Below, in pieces: positions 7,154 to 40,653 of a DNA stretch of 55,802 bases. The first letter of the stretch is position 1. Every line of letters begins with the position of its first letter. The notes under the pieces were generated by a model that did no database searches, was not told the DNA's origin, and worked only from the letters and a program-made list of their open reading frames with translations. The DNA comes from a virus (Duplodnaviria; Caudoviricetes). The stretch lies in the IMG/VR virus record IMGVR_UViG_3300011252_000208, positions 1 through 55,802 of that record. The stretch is one strand, 5' to 3'. Both the position numbers and the translations under genes were made by a program.

Positions 7154-7633
7154 TTATGCTACAAGATTGCTGGCTTGCTGATACAGAACAGTCGCTCTGA
7201 TTTCACCTGCGTTAGTAGCACCTGTGGTAGTCCAAGTAAGGCGAACATCTGTTGTGTTAGATGTTTCAGCCCAAGACAATGCACCACCAGCTTCAGTGGT
7301 AGGGTACTTGCGTCCTGCGCCAGAAGCTACGGTAATCGAAAACCCGTTGATAAATGTGCCGTTTCCACCAGCAGTATCGCCAACGCTGAAAACCGCAGTA
7401 GCATTACCCATAGCTGTTGGGCAATCTAGCACAATATCAATAATTTGAGACTTTGCAGGAATAACTACGTCAGTGACGTTTGCAGCAGAAGCACCGCCTG
7501 CAAGAGAGCCAGTAGTAAAGGACTGTGCCATGACAACTTGGCCTGTGTTTTTAATATCAGAGCCTACGGTTGTTCCAGTAGTATCTTTGATTGTTCCTGC
7601 CAGAATTGGCCCGGAAAAAGTAGTTGTACCCAT
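7154..7633 (-). CDS. Capsid-associated/decoration protein
   Basis: MGTTTFSGP N-terminus; follows major capsid gene; RBS AGGAG. Confidence 0.65.
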   Translation of the reverse strand: MGTTTFSGPILAGTIKDTTGTTVGSDIKNTGQVVMAQSFTTGSLAGGASAANVTDVVIPAKSQIIDIVLDCPTAMGNATAVFSVGDTAGGNGTFINGFSITVASGAGRKYPTTEAGGALSWAETSNTTDVRLTWTTTGATNAGEIRATVLYQQASNLVA

Positions 7634-7708
7634 GTCTATCTCCTGTCGTGGGTTAAGTCAGACGCTATTTGCGCCTGTCAGGGATAAGCAAATAATACAC
7701 AACAATCC

Positions 7709-14242: not shown

Positions 14243-14342
14243 GTTGAGGCAGAAAAGCTCTACCAGTGAAAGGACAGAAACTGGGAGCCGCTGACGTAAC
14301 CCGTTGGGAGGTGCGCGGAACGCCAACCTAATCTGCCTCAAC
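14243..14342 (-). ncRNA. Structured RNA element upstream of portal, anti-SD loops
   Basis: 11-bp closing stem GTTGAGGCAGA/TCTGCCTCAAC enclosing two hairpins with CACCTCC and TCTGTCCTTTC loops. Confidence 0.5.
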
Positions 14343-27599: not shown

Positions 27600-27670
27600 A
27601 AAAAAACCCCCGCTGTTGCAGTGCGAAACCTAGCCGAGCGGGGGTAGTTGAGTAAAGAGGAGTAATGCAG
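27600..27670 (-). ncRNA. Candidate ~70-nt sRNA with anti-SD
   Basis: TTGACA(27703-27698)-N17-CATCTT promoter; no ATG; UACUCCUCUUU; ACCCCCGCT/AGCGGGGGT stem plus T tract. Confidence 0.45.
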
Positions 27671-28644: not shown

Positions 28645-28860
28645 AGGGGGGGTAGTATATATACCCCCCTGTAAAGGGGGTACCGTGCTTACCGTAAAAT
28701 AACGCATTGATTTTATTCAACAATTTACGGTAAAACGGGTTTTTACCGTGCTTACCGTAAATCCTTAACCCATTGATATTGTTTAACATTCTACGTTACG
28801 TTAAGCGCGGTAAAATTTAACGTGAATTTTTTTACCGTAAATTATCCAATGAAATCAATG
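28645..28860. promoter_or_regulatory. Origin-like element with iterons and IHF-consensus sites
   Basis: G-run/C-run inverted repeat; TACCGTGCTTACCGTAAA x2; more TTACCGT copies; two WATCAANNNNTTR matches on - strand. Confidence 0.6.
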
Positions 28861-28970: not shown

Positions 28971-29393
28971 ATGAAACCACAAGAGATATTTGACGCAGCT
29001 TCGGTTCATTTGATGGGCATGGACGGCCCGTCATTGGACGAGAACAATGACGCTTGCGTGTACCGTGGGTATGACGATGATTGTGAGTACAACGGTCAGA
29101 AGTGTGCCGTTGGCTTGTTCATTGCTGACGAGTATTACAGCCCCGACTTAGAGGGTCAGGGTATAAGCGGTGGACAGGCTGTTGCTGACGCTGTTGCGGC
29201 GTCATGGGGTCAAGATGATTTAACTGTCGATCAGATAAGTTTGTTGGCTGATTTACAGAACGCGCATGATGAAACGTCTAGGGGCAGTTCGTTAATACCT
29301 GACCATACTTGGTCTAAGAACATTGTTGCCGCTTTAGACGGTGTAGCCACCAAGTTTCACCTACGCTTTGATCCGAAGGGGGCCAGCGCATGA
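28971..29393 (+). CDS. Conserved phage hypothetical protein
   Basis: QEIFD...CVYRG...KCAVG...DLQNAHD; RBS AAAGGA. Confidence 0.75.
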   Translation: MKPQEIFDAASVHLMGMDGPSLDENNDACVYRGYDDDCEYNGQKCAVGLFIADEYYSPDLEGQGISGGQAVADAVAASWGQDDLTVDQISLLADLQNAHDETSRGSSLIPDHTWSKNIVAALDGVATKFHLRFDPKGASA

Positions 29394-30926: not shown

Positions 30927-31202
30927 ATGCCGAAGTTTAATAACATAGAAGAAAAGCAGAAGTTTTTCCGCAATGCCATGCGGAAACTTGATACAGGTTT
31001 GCCAAAGGAAGCCAGCCCAGATTTGATAAAGTTTTTTGTGCTTCATGTGATAACGGCTTATGACCATGATGATTGTTGGGATGATGTTAAAGGGTTTGTT
31101 GACTTTGCTTTAAAAGAGAAGAGTCAATTTGATTCAGCTAGACAGGCGGTAGAAGATGCTGATAACATGTTGGATGCAATAACAAACAGCAAAGACAGAT
31201 GA
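30927..31202 (+). CDS. Hypothetical protein
   Basis: TAGCGAAAAGGA leader. Confidence 0.7.
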   Translation: MPKFNNIEEKQKFFRNAMRKLDTGLPKEASPDLIKFFVLHVITAYDHDDCWDDVKGFVDFALKEKSQFDSARQAVEDADNMLDAITNSKDR

Positions 31203-31435
31203 TGCAACCAGAAGATTTAGAAAGAATTGCGGCGGGGCTTCTTAACGAAGTACCCGCTAATTTTTCGACTGCTGACTTACGCGATTTAATAGTCGAACTT
31301 TTGTTCGGGTTAGGCGTGAGTCCATCAGATTTGCCGATGTTTTGTTTACTGCTGATTGATAAATACGTGGCGGATAATAAGATAGAAGAGTCCCGACAAA
31401 GAAAAACCCCGCCCGATTATGGGCAGGGTTTGTGA
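31199..31435 (+). CDS. Hypothetical protein
   Basis: ATGA coupling. Confidence 0.6.
   Translation: MMQPEDLERIAAGLLNEVPANFSTADLRDLIVELLFGLGVSPSDLPMFCLLLIDKYVADNKIEESRQRKTPPDYGQGL
31402..31432. terminator. Probable bidirectional terminator between convergent units
   Basis: AAAAACCCCGCCC-GATTAT-GGGCAGGGTTT. Confidence 0.55.
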
Positions 31436-31456: not shown

Positions 31457-31798
31457 TTATCTATAGCGACTGCCCATTCGCGGCAATGGTTTAGACGGGT
31501 TTCTATCGGGCCATTCGTACACGGCTTCGCCATGCAGCGGCCTTGATTCTAGGTGTCCTTCTTTTACGAGGTTTCGCAGTAGTTCTTGCGCTACATCGTC
31601 TTTGACACGCATTTTTCTGGCGAGGTCTTTGATTGTCCAAGCGTCTCTAGTTTTGATTGTGTCGAAGGCTATAGCCATGAGGTCTACTTTGGCCCCATAG
31701 TTACGCCCGACGATAGCTTGAGTTGGTTGTGCTATTAGCTGATGACGTAGGTTTTCGATTCTCGCTAGTTCTATATATGTTGGATTTAATCCACTCAT
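31457..31798 (-). CDS. Winged-HTH domain protein
   Basis: WTIKDLARKMRVKDDVAQELLRNLVKEGHL. Confidence 0.65.
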   Translation of the reverse strand: MSGLNPTYIELARIENLRHQLIAQPTQAIVGRNYGAKVDLMAIAFDTIKTRDAWTIKDLARKMRVKDDVAQELLRNLVKEGHLESRPLHGEAVYEWPDRNPSKPLPRMGSRYR

Positions 31799-31986
31799 AT
31801 TTTTTTCCCCCATGATCTTAGATCACTAACATATCGTTCTAGTTCTGTACGCGCTACCCACAGATCGTTTTGTGCGTTGGGTAGTGGGCTTTTTTTGAAT
31901 GTTTCGTCTTGCAGTCTATCGACTCTGCCGCGCAGGAACTTTAGTTCTGATTCTTGCGCGGGTGTTAGGCCCGTTTCTAGTCCCAC
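31795..31986 (-). CDS. Hypothetical protein
   Basis: Overlaps neighbours in the operon. Confidence 0.6.
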   Translation of the reverse strand: MGLETGLTPAQESELKFLRGRVDRLQDETFKKSPLPNAQNDLWVARTELERYVSDLRSWGKKI

Positions 31987-32216
31987 ATTGCGTCCCCTTC
32001 TAGGACGATTGCAGGCCCGACTAGCCTGCGCCCAGCGATCATGCTGGCTTGAATATTAACGGGAAGATCGTGCATTAGACCCTCTTCGTTAATTATGAGT
32101 TGCATTTTTTCTGGGTTCATTAGTGGAACCATTTCCACCAGCCCCCCGACAATCGCTTGCGCTTCTTCTAGCGTAGGCTGTTTGTCTTTAAAGAAGTGTA
32201 ACATTTTTTCTGCCAT
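31977..32216 (-). CDS. DUF3846-like protein
   Basis: PTLEEAQAIVGGLVE...IINEEG...LPVN..AS. Confidence 0.7.
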   Translation of the reverse strand: MAEKMLHFFKDKQPTLEEAQAIVGGLVEMVPLMNPEKMQLIINEEGLMHDLPVNIQASMIAGRRLVGPAIVLEGDAMWD

Positions 32217-32231
32217 TTTGTATCCTTTGCT

Positions 32232-32279
32232 ATTACGGCGTTATTTCCCAATTTGGGTAATTACGGCGTTATTTCCCAA
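32232..32279. repeat. 20-bp direct repeat x2
   Basis: ATTACGGCGTTATTTCCCAA at 32232 and 32260. Confidence 0.85.
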
Positions 32280-32344
32280 AACGGATTAAAATACGCATTT
32301 AAATCCGCTCCCAAGGATTAGCACATCATGGCATGCGTGTAAAT

Positions 32345-32465
32345 AAAAAAAACCCTCACCGCGGCAACGGTAAGGGTTTATAACTTAACGAAAGGATCGT
32401 TATGTTTATTTGAACTTTGTAGCTGTAACTACCTAGCAAAATGTAAGAGCGACCTAACCCTTAAT
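32345..32465 (-). ncRNA. Candidate ~120-nt sRNA with anti-SD hairpin
   Basis: Promoter TTGCAT-N17-TAGGAA; no ATG; TAACG-ATCCTTT-CGTTA hairpin; terminator at 32345-32379. Confidence 0.5.
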
Positions 32466-32508
32466 TCCCAATTCCTAGCATAAGGTTTTATGTTATGCAA
32501 GCCTTTAT

Positions 32509-34719
32509 TTATAAATTTTCTCGCGCTGTTCTGGCTTCATATTCGCCACGGCTTAACGGCCCACCTGCAACGCCCAGCCACTTATTTACACCTGACTGTG
32601 TTAGCCTGTAGGTATCAACGCGCCCTGCCTCTTGCAGTGCTGTTATGGTGTTTTTAACTGTGCTTTCTCCAATGTGTTTCAGTGCGATTACGCATGGTTC
32701 ACCTGACGAACTTGTTCGTATTGCTTCATGCGCTCCGTCATTAGCGCCGCCTTTTGTGACTGCATTTCCGTCAGCTTCCATCATGGCTAAGAAGTCGAAC
32801 ATGTGTTGGAGTCTGTTTCTGACCGCGTCTGACAGCGCCAAGTTGCGTATATCTTCTGACCTATCTTCTAACAAACCTGTGTTCGGGTTTCGGATAAAGT
32901 GTCTTATGTCCCGATTAGCTGGCCCGTTGGCTTTGACCACAGCGCCATCGAACACGGTGTTACGTGCATAATCCACGTTGAGGTCTTTACATCGCTGTCT
33001 GCCTAGCCGTTCTTCTACGTTCCACACGGTAAATGCGCAGCGGACGCCATCAACGATAGCTGACGTACCCCGAATGAGATTACGCGCTTGTTCTGGTGTT
33101 GTGACGGGATCGTTGTCTTTGATTTTAGCCATGTGGTGATTGACCATGACTGTAGCGCCTGTTTCAGTTGATATTTGCGCAAGCATACCCATAAATGCGG
33201 CTCCTGCGGCTGGATCAGCGTTTACATCTGCGTGTACGAATGACGCCATTGGGTCGATAACCAGCAGTGCGAGATTTTGCATTTCTAAGATTTGATCGTA
33301 GATGCGTCCAAACTCTTCGCCCATGACGTAGCTGTTGTCGATCTTTTGCATGATTGGAAACACACCGCCGAGGTTAGGTAACGGCAGGATTTTTAAATTG
33401 TTCGGGTATTCGCGGCGCTTGCCCATAGGGTCCATGCGTTCTATTCGCCTGTGCATTTCGTCTTTATCATCTTCTGCGGATAGAATTATTGCATCCCCGA
33501 ATGTGGATACCATACCCCCGAAAGCTGATTGCATGGGTTCGCCCGATGCGACTTTCATTGCTAGGTCTAGGGTCATCATGCCTTTACCGCTATCGCCAGC
33601 GGCGGCGAATATGGTTGGAACGCCTAGCGGTATTGTGCCGTTGATTAGGTACTCTTGTTCGGGTGCGCGACCTACAAAGTAAGTCCCGATGTTTAGGCTA
33701 TCGTCCAGCAGGTGTATTGGCTTTTTGATTTTGCTTTGGCTACTGCGGATAAACCTGTGAACGTCAAATTGTTCGTCTAGTGCGTCTGCGGCATCCCACT
33801 TTTCTGGTTTTCCGAATGGCGCACGTAGCATGAGAGTTGATTTTGCCCCTGCATCTTTGGCGAGGCGTTCTACGAGTGCAGCCAAGTCCCGACCTGCTTT
33901 ATCGTTGTCGGGCCAAAGGATTACGTCTTTGCCCTCAAGTGGTGAGAAATCAAACTTATGGGCGACACGTTCCGATAGCATGCCTGCGCCCCCGATAGTA
34001 CAGGTAGCTGCAAAGCCCATGCTGGTTAGTGCATCAGCGCATTTCTCGCCTTCCGCCCATATAACTGTTTCTGCATCCAAAATGTTCGGGATGTTATATA
34101 GGGGTCTTGGCTCTGGCAGACCCATACGCCCGTTCATAAACTGGCGAAATTGTTTTTTAACTTCGCCGTCTTCGCTTTCTTCCACGTATTTACGGACTGT
34201 GACAAGCACAACGCCGTCAGCGTCAGTGTATGTATATTCCGCATCGTATGGTGTATCTAAATTGTAGACCTTTTTTGCGCCTACTTGTTCGGGTTGTTGC
34301 AGCGGAATTGGTTCCGGGCTTGGTACGTTGGCAAGTTCGGGTTTGATTGGGTTTTCTGGCGCTGGCTCTTGTGGCGTTCCGAGGAAAGATTGATAGTGCG
34401 CGGCGACTTCTCTGCTAGTCCAGCCCCGACCTTCCATGAGGATTTTGGTTATACCCCCGATGCCATCACCTGTGGCCCAATCCTGACCGCGCATGAAGTT
34501 GGGGCCATGAATATCTATGTTGATTTGTAACGAACTACCCGCTTCGCCTTGAAACGACCCGATCATAAATGTAGTGCCGTGACGCACACCATTTGGGTAT
34601 GTATCGAACAAATCTTGAAGCTGTGTTGTGCGTGGCACAAGGTTGGAAATTTTATCTGTAAGCTGGCTAGTTGTGTTGCCAAAGCGCAATATTGTCATTA
34701 TGTTGTCCTTATCACTCAT
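32509..34719 (-). CDS. Primase-helicase (TOPRIM plus RepA/AAA_25 helicase)
   Basis: AEGEKCAD, WPDNDKAG and WDAAD TOPRIM motifs; AAGDSGKG Walker A, LLVIDP, NHHMAK, RGTSAIVDGVR. Confidence 0.9.
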   Translation of the reverse strand: MSDKDNIMTILRFGNTTSQLTDKISNLVPRTTQLQDLFDTYPNGVRHGTTFMIGSFQGEAGSSLQINIDIHGPNFMRGQDWATGDGIGGITKILMEGRGWTSREVAAHYQSFLGTPQEPAPENPIKPELANVPSPEPIPLQQPEQVGAKKVYNLDTPYDAEYTYTDADGVVLVTVRKYVEESEDGEVKKQFRQFMNGRMGLPEPRPLYNIPNILDAETVIWAEGEKCADALTSMGFAATCTIGGAGMLSERVAHKFDFSPLEGKDVILWPDNDKAGRDLAALVERLAKDAGAKSTLMLRAPFGKPEKWDAADALDEQFDVHRFIRSSQSKIKKPIHLLDDSLNIGTYFVGRAPEQEYLINGTIPLGVPTIFAAAGDSGKGMMTLDLAMKVASGEPMQSAFGGMVSTFGDAIILSAEDDKDEMHRRIERMDPMGKRREYPNNLKILPLPNLGGVFPIMQKIDNSYVMGEEFGRIYDQILEMQNLALLVIDPMASFVHADVNADPAAGAAFMGMLAQISTETGATVMVNHHMAKIKDNDPVTTPEQARNLIRGTSAIVDGVRCAFTVWNVEERLGRQRCKDLNVDYARNTVFDGAVVKANGPANRDIRHFIRNPNTGLLEDRSEDIRNLALSDAVRNRLQHMFDFLAMMEADGNAVTKGGANDGAHEAIRTSSSGEPCVIALKHIGESTVKNTITALQEAGRVDTYRLTQSGVNKWLGVAGGPLSRGEYEARTARENL

Positions 34720-39820: not shown

Positions 39821-40221
39821 TACTTGTCCTCGACTTCTACTGTAAAGCGTCCGACTTCTGTAGTACGGGCGGCTTCTAGTGTTGCTTTGATTGCGGGTGG
39901 AGCGGTTGTGTACTTGCGCTCTTCCACAGCGTAGGTCAGCTTTGCGTAGTGCTGTGCATTCTCAGGCGTCATGCTGTTGAATGTGTCACGCAGTACGTCT
40001 TGATCCCAAGTGACCTTTTTACCAACGTTGACTTTCATAGCCACATTGCCTTCGACAATATGCGCAGTACCAAAGTCTTTACCGTCTGCCCGTAGTGCAT
40101 CACGCGCCAATGGCAGAAATAAATCTGATAGTTGATCGTCTACGTTTTTGAGTTCGGCACGAAGCTCAGTGATTACTGACTTGAGTTCGTCGCGCCGCTC
40201 AAACAGTTCCATACTGTTCAT
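39820..40221 (-). CDS. Hypothetical recombination-module protein
   Basis: Coiled-coil N-terminus, KKVTWDQ; own promoter and RBS. Confidence 0.75.
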   Translation of the reverse strand: MNSMELFERRDELKSVITELRAELKNVDDQLSDLFLPLARDALRADGKDFGTAHIVEGNVAMKVNVGKKVTWDQDVLRDTFNSMTPENAQHYAKLTYAVEERKYTTAPPAIKATLEAARTTEVGRFTVEVEDK

Positions 40222-40247
40222 GCGTATATTCCTTCTTTGCTACAAGT

Positions 40248-40282
40248 TCCCAATACCTAGCAAGTGCTGGCATACGTGTCAA
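40248..40282 (-). promoter_or_regulatory. Promoter of replication operon
   Basis: TTGACA-N17-TAGGTA followed by TTGGGA; near-identical layout at 32309-32343. Confidence 0.65.
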
Positions 40283-40653
40283 CTATTTTTTTTGGTTAAA
40301 TATATTTCAATGCCTAAACAAGCCTTCATCAGCTTCTTTTTTAGTTTAAATTCAGGGGTTTCCACGCCTTTTGCGTCTTCAACAATTTGTTCCCACACGC
40401 CATCTTTGTTCTCGCGCTCGTATCTAAAGTCGGCAACATAGGCGCATATCTTCTGGTCATTAACGATCAGATTGAACCTGACTTGCAGTTCCAAGTTTCT
40501 GACGGTGCCAGCCCGTTCTAGCGCGTGTAGATATAAATAGCGTTCTGATTCCCACTTTGAATCGAACTTGATGTTGTGAACCACAACCTTCTTATTACCG
40601 TACTTGGGCCTTGACCCAAATCTTCTGGGATTATATGGTCTTTGTGACGCCAT
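40279..40653 (-). CDS. DUF1064 endonuclease-like protein
   Basis: KYGNKK...FDSKWE...YVADF.Y...VEDAKG..T..FKLKKKL. Confidence 0.8.
   Translation of the reverse strand: MASQRPYNPRRFGSRPKYGNKKVVVHNIKFDSKWESERYLYLHALERAGTVRNLELQVRFNLIVNDQKICAYVADFRYERENKDGVWEQIVEDAKGVETPEFKLKKKLMKACLGIEIYLTKKNS

What the first reader, a model, noticed from the sequence alone, without database searches (positions are those of the whole stretch)
32345..32500. ~120-nt sRNA downstream of primase, complementary to the shared leader
Seen: promoter of the same class as the replication-operon promoter, no ATG, strong terminator. The RNA contains UUUUGCUA (32441-32434), complementary to UAGCAAAA leaders, and a hairpin exposing AUCCUUU, complementary to AAAGGAU SDs (genes 32216, 30396). 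With the elements at 14243 and 27600 this suggests a multi-sRNA anti-RBS network timing phage translation.
Basis: partly seen in the sequence, partly recalled or inferred. Interest (0 to 1): 0.7.

Follow-up and report, generated by a model that had tools for sequence, protein, structure and literature searches.

The report
Variable ORF-less small-RNA cassette after primase
An uncultured marine phage carries a 181-base add-on after its primase gene that looks like a small non-coding RNA gene, but most close relatives lack it and its proposed pairing to ribosome-binding sites is not conserved.

Summary
On the minus strand the primase stop (32511-32509) is followed by a promoter-like element of the same class as two operon promoters, then a ~125-nt ATG-free stretch with hairpins, then a 13-bp terminator with a T8 run.

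The "anti-RBS sRNA network" reading is not supported:
- The whole unit (32335-32515) is an accessory replacement allele. It is absent from 14 of 18 relatives with primase 86-99% identical.
- Where present, it occurs in five variant forms.
- These forms keep the promoter, a 5' hairpin and a terminator. In the 5' hairpin, 35 of 35 cells pair and 3 of 7 pairs have two-sided changes.
- The middle of the RNA is deleted, expanded or replaced between forms.
- UUUUGCUA and the AUCCUUU loop exist only in the window's form.
- TAGCAAAA and AAAGGAT are not enriched in the window.
- Pairing to 70 start regions is no better than for shuffled RNAs.

Most likely this is an ORF-less, moron-like small-RNA gene with unknown targets. 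A terminator/promoter insulator and a recombination relic remain live rivals. Transcription as a discrete RNA is not shown. Interest is modest.

The parts
32335..32515 (-). Cassette-specific segment (181 nt). Cassette-less relatives carry 12 nt here instead, and in those the primase TGA overlaps the -35 TTGACC.
   Evidence: alignment with relatives; an RNA-library contig joins 32334 to 32516 with 12 other letters between.
32471..32500 (-). Promoter-like element P': TTGCAT (32500-32495), 17-nt spacer, TG-C-TAGGAA(T) (32477-32471). TTGGGA (32471-32466) covers the likely start.
   Evidence: The same motif class occurs at 32309-32323 and 40248-40262. Across variants the -10 region varies only as TA[GA][GACT]A[AC]T. 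Inferred, not shown to fire.
32343..32469 (-). Predicted ~125-nt ORF-less RNA, from a start near 32469-32466 to the end of the T run.
   Evidence: fold; no ATG and no conserved ORF across 7 variant sequences.
32444..32463 (-). 5' hairpin H1: 7-bp stem UAAGGGU/GCUCUUA with 6-nt loop UAGGUC. It can extend towards the 5' end.
   Evidence: Present in all five variant forms; 35 of 35 cells paired, 3 of 7 pairs changed on both sides, 6 of 500 shuffles reach this.
32434..32441 (-). It is specific to the window's allele.
   Evidence: the RNA-library contig of X2 differs at 32438 and 32442.
32419..32432 (-). Hairpin H2 (GUAGU-UACA-GCUAC). Replaced by a different hairpin in V3/V4 and absent in V2 and V5.
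32386..32402 (-). Enlarged by about 25 nt in V3/V4, half deleted in V2, absent in V5.
32377..32391 (-). A/U-rich single strand before the terminator. CGUUAAGUUAUAAACCC is invariant in V1-V4; V5 has CAGUUAGAUUAAGGCCC.
32343..32379 (-). Intrinsic terminator: 13-bp stem, GCCG loop, T8 run.
   Evidence: V4 keeps the stem through CCGTT..GCGG to CCATT..AATGG, and V5 has a different stem sequence.
32309..32343 (-). Promoter P of the DUF3846 operon. The cassette's 3' end supplies its -35 (TTTACA, 32343-32338). Then TG-C-TAATCC(T) and TTGGGA.
   Evidence: At the same position, 63%-tier relatives have canonical TTGACA-17-TAATAAT.
32509..34719 (-). Primase/helicase gene (736 aa), the upstream neighbour.
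   Evidence: AAA_25, 1e-31; phrog_239, DNA primase/helicase.
31977..32216 (-). DUF3846 gene (79 aa), the downstream neighbour, with leader TAGCAAAGGAUACAAAAUG.

Best explanation
The segment is an accessory, ORF-less, moron-like transcription unit.

Anatomy:
- An early-class promoter copy (P').
- A small RNA of about 125 nt that begins with a stable 5' hairpin (H1).
- An A/U-rich single strand, then a strong intrinsic terminator with a U tail.

Likely action (inferred):
- The terminator ends primase-operon transcripts.
- The cassette's last bases rebuild the -35 of the next promoter, so the downstream operon keeps its own start.
- The RNA most likely acts in trans as a small riboregulator or decoy on host or competitor targets, rather than as a core timer of phage translation.
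- The 3' module (A/U-rich strand, terminator hairpin, U tail) is the layout that Hfq-type sRNAs use. That statement is from established knowledge, recalled.

What is shown: the anatomy, its presence or absence in relatives, the variant forms, and hairpin conservation.
What is inferred: that P' fires, that the RNA accumulates, and that it acts in trans. Targets are unknown.
For: - Promoter class shared with two operon promoters: 3 exact sites, all in the gene direction.
- In 63%-tier relatives, the site homologous to P is a canonical TTGACA-17-TAATAAT promoter.
- Strong terminator.
- No ATG in V1-V3 and no ORF shared among 7 variant sequences.
- All five variant forms keep P', H1 and a terminator, while the body is only 33-60% alignable and the flanks are 93-99% identical.
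- H1: 35 of 35 cells paired, 3 of 7 pairs with two-sided change, 6 of 500 shuffles as high; slid controls pair 43-57% of cells.
- Terminator stems are kept through paired changes in V4 and V5.
- The variable positions of the -10 region are its third and fourth bases.
- 63%-tier relatives show that a terminator alone, without P', can sit at this site. P' is therefore not needed just to terminate.
- The cassette-bearing allele is covered by contigs of RNA libraries from two studies. This shows presence only.
Against: - No direct evidence of a discrete transcript. All runs laid were assembled contigs, and one 761-nt contig runs from primase through the cassette into DUF3846.
- P' was not flagged by the consensus promoter scan. 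Its -10 (TAGGAA/AGGAAT) is weak by E. coli rules.
- P' differs between variants by 2-17%, about what unconstrained sequence might show given roughly 7% (mostly silent) change in the primase 3' end.
- V2 has lost H2 and half of H3, and V5 has only H1 plus the terminator. No conserved seed is evident.
- All two-sided changes in H1 come from one lineage (V5) among 5 sequences.
- The unit is absent from 14 of 18 readable close relatives.
- There are no Rfam matches at gathering score.
- The host is unknown, so whether it has Hfq is unknown.
Confidence: 0.45

Rival explanations
1. A cis-acting insulator or attenuator module. The selected part is the terminator, which separates the replication operon from the DUF3846 operon. 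P' transcripts are short, terminated leaders with no trans function. Some may read through the terminator and add to downstream expression.
For: - 63%-tier relatives have a hairpin plus terminator, then a promoter, at the same site; others have no terminator at all. Terminator presence or absence at this junction is therefore an old polymorphism.
- The terminator and the rebuilt -35 are the best conserved parts.
- In truncated (nascent) folds, the 5' arm of H1 can pair with the 5' arm of the terminator. This is the minimum-energy fold for V1, V2 and V5, as an attenuator would need.
- An RNA-library contig runs through the terminator.
- Short 5'UTR-derived ncRNA candidates are common in phages: 29 in six Pseudomonas phages (PMC10914365, passages read).
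Against: - The H1-arm/terminator-arm complementarity is not beyond composition-matched shuffles: p = 0.06-0.08 for V1, V3 and V4, and 0.44 for V5.
- There is no conserved aptamer-like body and no Rfam leader or riboswitch match at gathering score.
- A full promoter P follows the terminator directly, so read-through control seems redundant.
- A terminator alone does not explain why P' and H1 are kept in all five forms.
Confidence: 0.28
2. A neutral relic of modular recombination: an 'empty moron'. P' would be an old promoter of the next gene, or of a lost ORF. The body would be leftover UTR, and the terminator plus P a composite junction brought in by exchange between phages, as with PeSL terminator/promoter motifs in T4-like phages.
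For: - The allele replaces 12 nt rather than inserting cleanly. The last primase codons are recoded silently: AAC CTT TGA against AAT TTA TAA.
- The whole intergenic region is a mosaic of small modules whose presence varies among relatives with 95-99% identical primase.
- The body shows large deletions and replacements.
- P' divergence is near the neutral level.
- PeSLs are composite terminator/promoter motifs that mediate indels (PMC4122927, abstract read).
Against: - No variant with an ORF between P' and the terminator turned up in the collection scans. In viral contigs the 5' junction pattern hit 4 contigs and the 3' pattern 3. In metagenome contigs the 3' junction 19-mer hit 14 loci, of which 8 are true cassettes.
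- H1 keeps pairing through 3 two-sided changes.
- No form has lost P', H1 or the terminator.
- The composite terminator/promoter sequence is not a repeated motif in this genome; the only other similarity is a 10-12-nt T-run match near 27600.
Confidence: 0.2
3. One reading: a trans-acting anti-leader / anti-SD sRNA. Together with elements at 14243 and 27600, it would pair with the shared UAGCAAA(A/G)GGA leaders and time phage translation.
For: - UUUUGCUA pairs with the leader of the gene starting at 28971 over 8 nt. UUUGCUA pairs with the leader at 40221 over 7 nt. At 32216 the best 7-nt match is CAUUUUG, to the CAAAAUG at the start codon.
- Four of 6 leaders have at least 7 nt of complement, against 1% of shuffles.
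- The octamer lies between hairpins in the centroid fold.
Against: - The octamer and the UCCUU loop are present in only 1 of 5 cassette forms, while the leader is unchanged.
- A near-identical allele in an RNA-library contig also changes the octamer, at 32438 and 32442.
- The cassette is absent from most close relatives.
- The motifs are not enriched.
- Overall duplex strength to 70 start regions equals that of shuffles.
- In the minimum-energy fold, the UUUU is paired.
Confidence: 0.07

Closest known systems
Morons of temperate and other tailed phages: independent promoter-gene-terminator units inserted between genes that are adjacent in relatives. Source: 'The moron comes of age', PMC3594210, abstract in the search listing. 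The HK97 origin of the term is recalled.
   Same: It has its own promoter-like element and its own terminator. It sits between two genes that are directly adjacent in close relatives. Presence is patchy, and alleles appear to be exchanged horizontally.
   Different: It carries no ORF; the payload, if any, is an RNA. It replaces 12 nt, recodes the last primase codons, and supplies the -35 of the next promoter.
Phage-encoded small ncRNA candidates defined by a start site plus early termination. Example: 29 5'UTR-derived candidates in six Pseudomonas phages by ONT-cappable-seq (PMC10914365, passages read). Lambda oop and the pR'-tR' 6S transcript are recalled examples.
   Same: A short ORF-less transcript, bounded by a promoter and an intrinsic terminator, lying just upstream of an operon.
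   Different: There are no expression data here. A second full promoter follows the terminator. The unit is an accessory allele with a highly variable body.
PeSLs, the composite terminator/promoter motifs that mediate modular shuffling in T4-like phages (PMC4122927, abstract read; PMC2839356, listing only).
   Same: A stem-loop directly followed by an early-class promoter lies at the boundary of an indel between near-identical phages.
   Different: It is not a many-copy repeated motif in this genome. The phage group is different: TerL is nearest to Pelagibacter phages HTVC027P and HTVC023P at 54-62% identity. No ORF is being shuffled.
Hfq-dependent trans-acting sRNAs of Proteobacteria (architecture recalled from established knowledge).
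   Same: About 80-150 nt, with a 5' stem-loop, an A/U-rich single strand next to a terminator hairpin, and a U7-8 tail.
   Different: No conserved seed or target was found. The host and its Hfq status are unknown. There is no family match in Rfam.

Membership tests
Trans-acting base-pairing sRNA (Hfq-type) | Own promoter giving a discrete short transcript | tested here: inconclusive
   The promoter-class motif is shared with two operon promoters, but the consensus scan did not flag it. Only assembled contigs of RNA libraries were available.
Trans-acting base-pairing sRNA (Hfq-type) | Rho-independent terminator with a U tail, preceded by an A/U-rich single strand | tested here: met
   13-bp stem plus T8. 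AAGUUAUAAA lies before the stem and is invariant in V1-V4.
Trans-acting base-pairing sRNA (Hfq-type) | Conserved seed complementary to its targets | tested here: not met
Duplexes to 70 start regions equal those of shuffles.
Trans-acting base-pairing sRNA (Hfq-type) | Binding to Hfq or ProQ and an effect on target mRNAs | not testable with these tools
   Host unknown. The only genome hits are 3 metagenome-assembled contigs.
Moron | Inserted between genes that are adjacent in close relatives | tested here: met
   14 of 18 readable relatives lack it and have the primase stop overlapping the next promoter. The cassette-less join is also seen.
Moron | Flanked by its own promoter and terminator | tested here: met
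   By sequence anatomy only.
Moron | Carries a protein-coding gene | tested here: not met
   No ATG in V1-V3, and no shared ORF in 7 variant sequences.
PeSL-type composite terminator/promoter | Stem-loop directly followed by an early promoter at indel boundaries | tested here: met
   The terminator (32379-32350) is followed by P (32343-32309) at the right edge of the replacement.
PeSL-type composite terminator/promoter | Conserved motif repeated many times in the genome | tested here: not met
   Variant cassettes match the rest of the window only by short chance-level words and by the promoter at 40247-40262.
Riboswitch / transcription attenuator | Conserved sensing domain, or a match to a described leader family | tested here: not met
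   The body is deleted or replaced among variants. All Rfam hits are far below gathering score.
Riboswitch / transcription attenuator | Mutually exclusive antiterminator and terminator pairings | tested here: inconclusive
   The alternative 5'-arm/terminator-arm helix is the minimum-energy fold of truncated V1, V2 and V5, but it is not beyond shuffles (p = 0.06-0.44).
Lambda-type pR'-tR' short transcript with Q antitermination | A Q-like antiterminator gene, with late genes downstream | not tested
   Downstream lie three small genes ending at the terminator 31431-31404. I did not search for a Q homologue.

The most novel reading that the evidence does not exclude
The locus would be a swappable RNA cassette. 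A constant frame holds an exchangeable middle that differs between co-circulating, near-identical marine phages. The frame consists of the early promoter, the 5' hairpin with loop U-N-K-G-U-C, the A/U-rich strand and the terminator. Each allele would aim a phage RNA at a different host or rival target, for example a defence transcript or a competing phage. That would make it an RNA counterpart of the diversifying accessory genes seen in phage arms races.
Probability: 0.12. Interest if true: 0.6.

Novelty: new member of a known kind. Interest (0 to 1): 0.3.

Why it matters
If the RNA is made, it would be one of few candidate small RNAs in abundant, uncultured marine phages related to HTVC023P-type pelagiphages. 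Its five natural alleles, plus a natural null allele, would form a ready-made comparison set for asking what phage sRNAs do. If it is only a terminator/promoter junction, it still shows how regulatory modules are swapped at gene boundaries in these phages. Either way, the proposed genome-wide anti-RBS network should not be built on it.

Tried and rejected
- **Rfam.** The whole window at gathering score gave only Mu-gpT-DE at 7631-7683. The region at E <= 10 gave 17 weak hits, all below gathering score and mostly on the terminator.
- **tRNA/tmRNA.** None in the window.
- **DNA search of the phage collection.** The 321-nt region gave no match.
- **More cassette contexts.**
  - The H1 pattern in viral contigs found only 2 known contigs.
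  - H1-like hairpins in the window: besides this one, four other hairpins with a T-N-K-GTC loop, none close in stem sequence.
  - The cassette DNA was absent from 5 related virus records, 2 of them at least 99% complete. An empty answer there shows little.
- **Body against the rest of the window.** Only chance-level words.
- **Antiterminator idea.** Not beyond shuffles.
- **Expression.**
  - The run search listed 22 runs, 20 holding part of the stretch and 7 on record as RNA. All were kept as contigs, and the RNA rows held 0.10-0.18 of the words.
  - Laying 4 RNA runs showed that contigs cover or bridge the cassette in X2 and X3, and that X8 holds the cassette-less join.
  - Contigs cannot show a start, an end, a strand or a level. 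Uncovered parts of primase say nothing.
- **Host.** The genome-contig scan found 3 metagenome-assembled contigs of different labelled taxa, so the host stays unknown.
- **Earlier notes, by sequence.** No look-alike in other genomes.
- **Pfam on 8 neighbouring proteins.** No family.
- **Not examined.** The elements at 14243 and 27600, beyond reading them. Supplementary files of the papers were not opened; Table S7 of PMC10914365 may list comparable RNAs.

Full report
**Setting**

The window is a 55.8-kb virus record, estimated 98% complete, with most genes on the minus strand. The replication operon runs from a promoter near 40290 through these genes:
- a phrog_2480 protein,
- a Sak4-like annealing protein,
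- a helicase,
- a Cas4-domain exonuclease,
- a 736-aa primase/helicase at 32509-34719.

The next minus-strand gene is a 79-aa DUF3846 protein at 31977-32216. TerL is nearest to Pelagibacter phages HTVC027P and HTVC023P, at 54-62% identity. RNA and DNA runs that hold parts of the stretch are labelled marine or seawater. The host is not known. The only genome hits to the primase are three metagenome-assembled contigs with different labels.

**The observation**

Read on the minus strand, the 292-nt gap between primase and DUF3846 contains, in order:
- TTGCAT-17 nt-TAGGAA(T), preceded by TG and followed by TTGGGA;
- an ATG-free stretch;
- a terminator-like hairpin at 32379-32350 with 13 pairs and a T8 run;
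- a second promoter-like element, TTTACA-17 nt-TAATCC(T) then TTGGGA;
- an A/T-rich hairpin;
- two exact copies of GGGAAATAACGCCGTAAT;
- the leader TAGCAAAGGATACAAAATG.

The motif TGCTANNNNTTGGGA occurs exactly three times in the window, always in the gene direction. The sites are the two above and the head of the replication operon.

The RNA predicted from about 32469 to 32343 folds into a 5' hairpin (H1), two small hairpins and the terminator. The energy is -39.6 kcal/mol with z = -3.9. However, only UCCUU is in a loop, and the UUUU is paired in the minimum-energy fold.

**Relatives change the picture**

A primase-based scan of IMG/VR returned 80 loci, out of 306 relatives, in three identity tiers. 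I read the downstream sequence of 18 loci with primase 86-99% identical.
- 14 lack the unit altogether. There the primase ends AAC CTT TGA, and that TGA lies inside the -35 (TTGACC) of the DUF3846 promoter.
- 4 carry a cassette.

In the window, 181 nt (32335-32515) replace 12 nt. The last primase codons are recoded silently (AAT TTA TAA), and the cassette's final bases provide a new -35, TTTACA. A contig from an RNA library shows the cassette-less join directly: 32334 to 32516 with 12 letters between.

I read the downstream sequence of 23 of the 63%-tier loci.
- Most have either the same overlap of the stop codon with a canonical TTGACA-17-TAATAAT promoter, or a stop followed by a palindromic hairpin, a terminator and then a promoter.
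- One (L039) has a short spacer before a TTGACA-type promoter.
- Two (L040, L041) carry extra modules downstream of the promoter.
- None has a second promoter with an RNA body.

Presence or absence of a terminator at this junction is therefore an old polymorphism. The promoter-bearing cassette is confined to the window's near relatives.

**Variant forms**

Exact-pattern scans were run for the two cassette junctions.
- In viral contigs the 5' junction pattern found 4 contigs and the 3' pattern found 3 of them.
- A 19-mer scan of the metagenome collection found 14 loci. Eight are true cassettes and 6 are unrelated chance matches.
- Some records are probably the same contig held in both collections.

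Together with the window they give five forms.

| Form | Where | Difference from V1 |
|---|---|---|
| V1 | the window | reference |
| V2 | L087, L089 | lacks H2 and half of H3 |
| V3 | L008, L009, L093 | H2 replaced by another hairpin; H3 enlarged by about 25 nt |
| V4 | L085, L091 | as V3, with a longer terminator loop; stem changed CCGTT..GCGG to CCATT..AATGG |
| V5 | L011/L082, L012/L083, L090, L094, L095 | only H1, a short spacer and a terminator, all of different sequence |

Against the window, identity by segment is as follows:

| Segment | Identity to the window |
|---|---|
| Primase 3' end | about 93% |
| DUF3846 | 93-99% |
| P' | 83-98% |
| RNA body | 33-60% alignable |

All five forms fold with a 5' hairpin that has a 6-nt loop (UAGGUC, UUUGUC or UUGGUC) and with a terminator. 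On a gapless alignment of H1, 35 of 35 cells pair and 3 of 7 pairs change on both sides. Six of 500 shuffles reach that, and slid controls pair 43-57% of cells. All three two-sided changes come from V5, so this is modest evidence.

No ORF is shared, and V1-V3 have no ATG.

**The anti-leader idea**

The leader motif noted earlier in this scan (e1-6298452) is real and is kept in relatives. Several results weigh against the idea.
- TAGCAAAA is found 8 times against 4.3 expected, and 6 of 100 shuffles reach 8. AAAGGAT is found 9 times against 8.5 expected. Neither is enriched.
- The best duplex between the RNA body and 70 start regions (-31.3 kcal/mol) is matched by 43% of shuffled bodies.

Three of those leaders share one heptamer, so they are not independent. 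An 8-mer to any leader occurs in 14.8% of shuffles.

The decisive point is conservation.
- The octamer reads UUUUAGCUA in V2, UUUUAGCU in V3 and UUUCAUCU in V4, and is absent in V5.
- A near-V1 allele in an RNA-library contig changes it at 32438 and 32442.
- The UCCUU loop is in V1 only.
- The DUF3846 leader is unchanged in all of these phages.

A core regulator of shared leaders would not be missing from most relatives or lose its seed in the rest.

**What it most likely is**

The parts kept in every form are the promoter copy, the 5' hairpin, an A/U-rich strand before the terminator (invariant in V1-V4), and the terminator with its U tail. That is the anatomy of a small RNA gene, and it fits the definition of a moron except that it has no ORF.

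I put 0.45 on a genuine accessory small RNA acting in trans on unknown targets. The rivals are:
- 0.28 on a cis-acting terminator/promoter insulator whose short transcript has no role of its own;
- 0.20 on a neutral relic of modular exchange, comparable to PeSL junctions in T4-like phages (PMC4122927, abstract);

An attenuator variant was examined. The 5' arm of H1 can pair with the 5' arm of the terminator, and this is the best fold of truncated V1, V2 and V5. However, the complementarity is not beyond composition-matched shuffles (p = 0.06-0.44).

**Expression**

Only assembled contigs of RNA libraries were available.
- Contigs from two studies cover the cassette.
- One 761-nt contig bridges primase, the cassette and DUF3846.
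- One contig carries the cassette-less join.

These show that both alleles circulate and occur in RNA libraries. They do not show that a discrete RNA exists.

**Known comparators and novelty**

Short ORF-less transcripts bounded by a start site and an early terminator are now commonly reported in phages. One study lists 29 candidates in six Pseudomonas phages (PMC10914365, passages read). Morons are a well-known kind (PMC3594210, abstract in the listing).

No Rfam family matches. The scan's earlier notes hold no look-alike on other DNA. I rate this a new member of a known kind with modest interest. The natural series of five alleles plus a null allele is its most useful feature.

Noticed in passing
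window 32232-32249 and 32260-32277 (-); L040/L041 downstream of primase: GGGAAATAACGCCGTAAT occurs exactly twice, in the 5' UTR of the DUF3846 gene (0.03 expected). Copy number among close relatives is 0, 1 or 2. Two distant relatives (63% primase identity) have three copies at the same place, one reading AATAACGGCGTTATT, a near-perfect palindrome. This looks like an operator for a DNA-binding regulator, or an RNA motif.
   Followed up: partly
window 28689-28841: A cluster of TTACCGTAAA / TTACGGTAAA sites lies in the divergent intergenic region between terS and the plus-strand gene block. Six of the 10 matches in the window fall here, at four places, against 4.1 expected genome-wide; no shuffle reaches 10. 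These are candidate operators or an origin.
   Followed up: no
window 32309-32323, 32466-32480, 40248-40262 (-): A promoter class with TG-C-TA(A/G)nnnT followed at once by TTGGGA. TTGGGAA is found 18 times against 9 expected, and 2 of 100 shuffles reach 18. The 63%-tier promoters instead carry TGGGA...TCCCA inverted repeats around the -10. This suggests a phage regulator site over the start.
   Followed up: partly
window 32509-32520 (-) against L002-L007: The last three primase codons are silently recoded between alleles: AAC CTT TGA forms the -35 of the next promoter, while the cassette allele has AAT TTA TAA.
   Followed up: yes
L026, L029, L031, L036 and others, just after primase: Many 63%-tier relatives have a palindromic hairpin, AACCCGACAATTTGTTCGGGTT, after the primase stop and before a terminator.
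   Followed up: no
window 7631-7683 (-): The Rfam Mu-gpT-DE RNA motif matches at 64.6 bits (gathering score 49), just downstream of the major head protein gene. It was the only Rfam match at gathering score.
   Followed up: no
window 32282-32307 (-): An A/U-rich hairpin, CGGAUUUAAAUGCGUAUUUUAAUCCG, followed by UUUU lies at the very start of the DUF3846 5' UTR. It is kept in most close and 86%-tier relatives and missing in L005, L011 and L012. It could be a weak attenuator.
   Followed up: no
window 31404-31431: A strong two-way terminator-like hairpin (11 pairs, 7 G-C) sits between the convergent genes 31199-31435 (+) and 31457-31813 (-). It ends the short three-gene operon that follows the cassette.
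   Followed up: no
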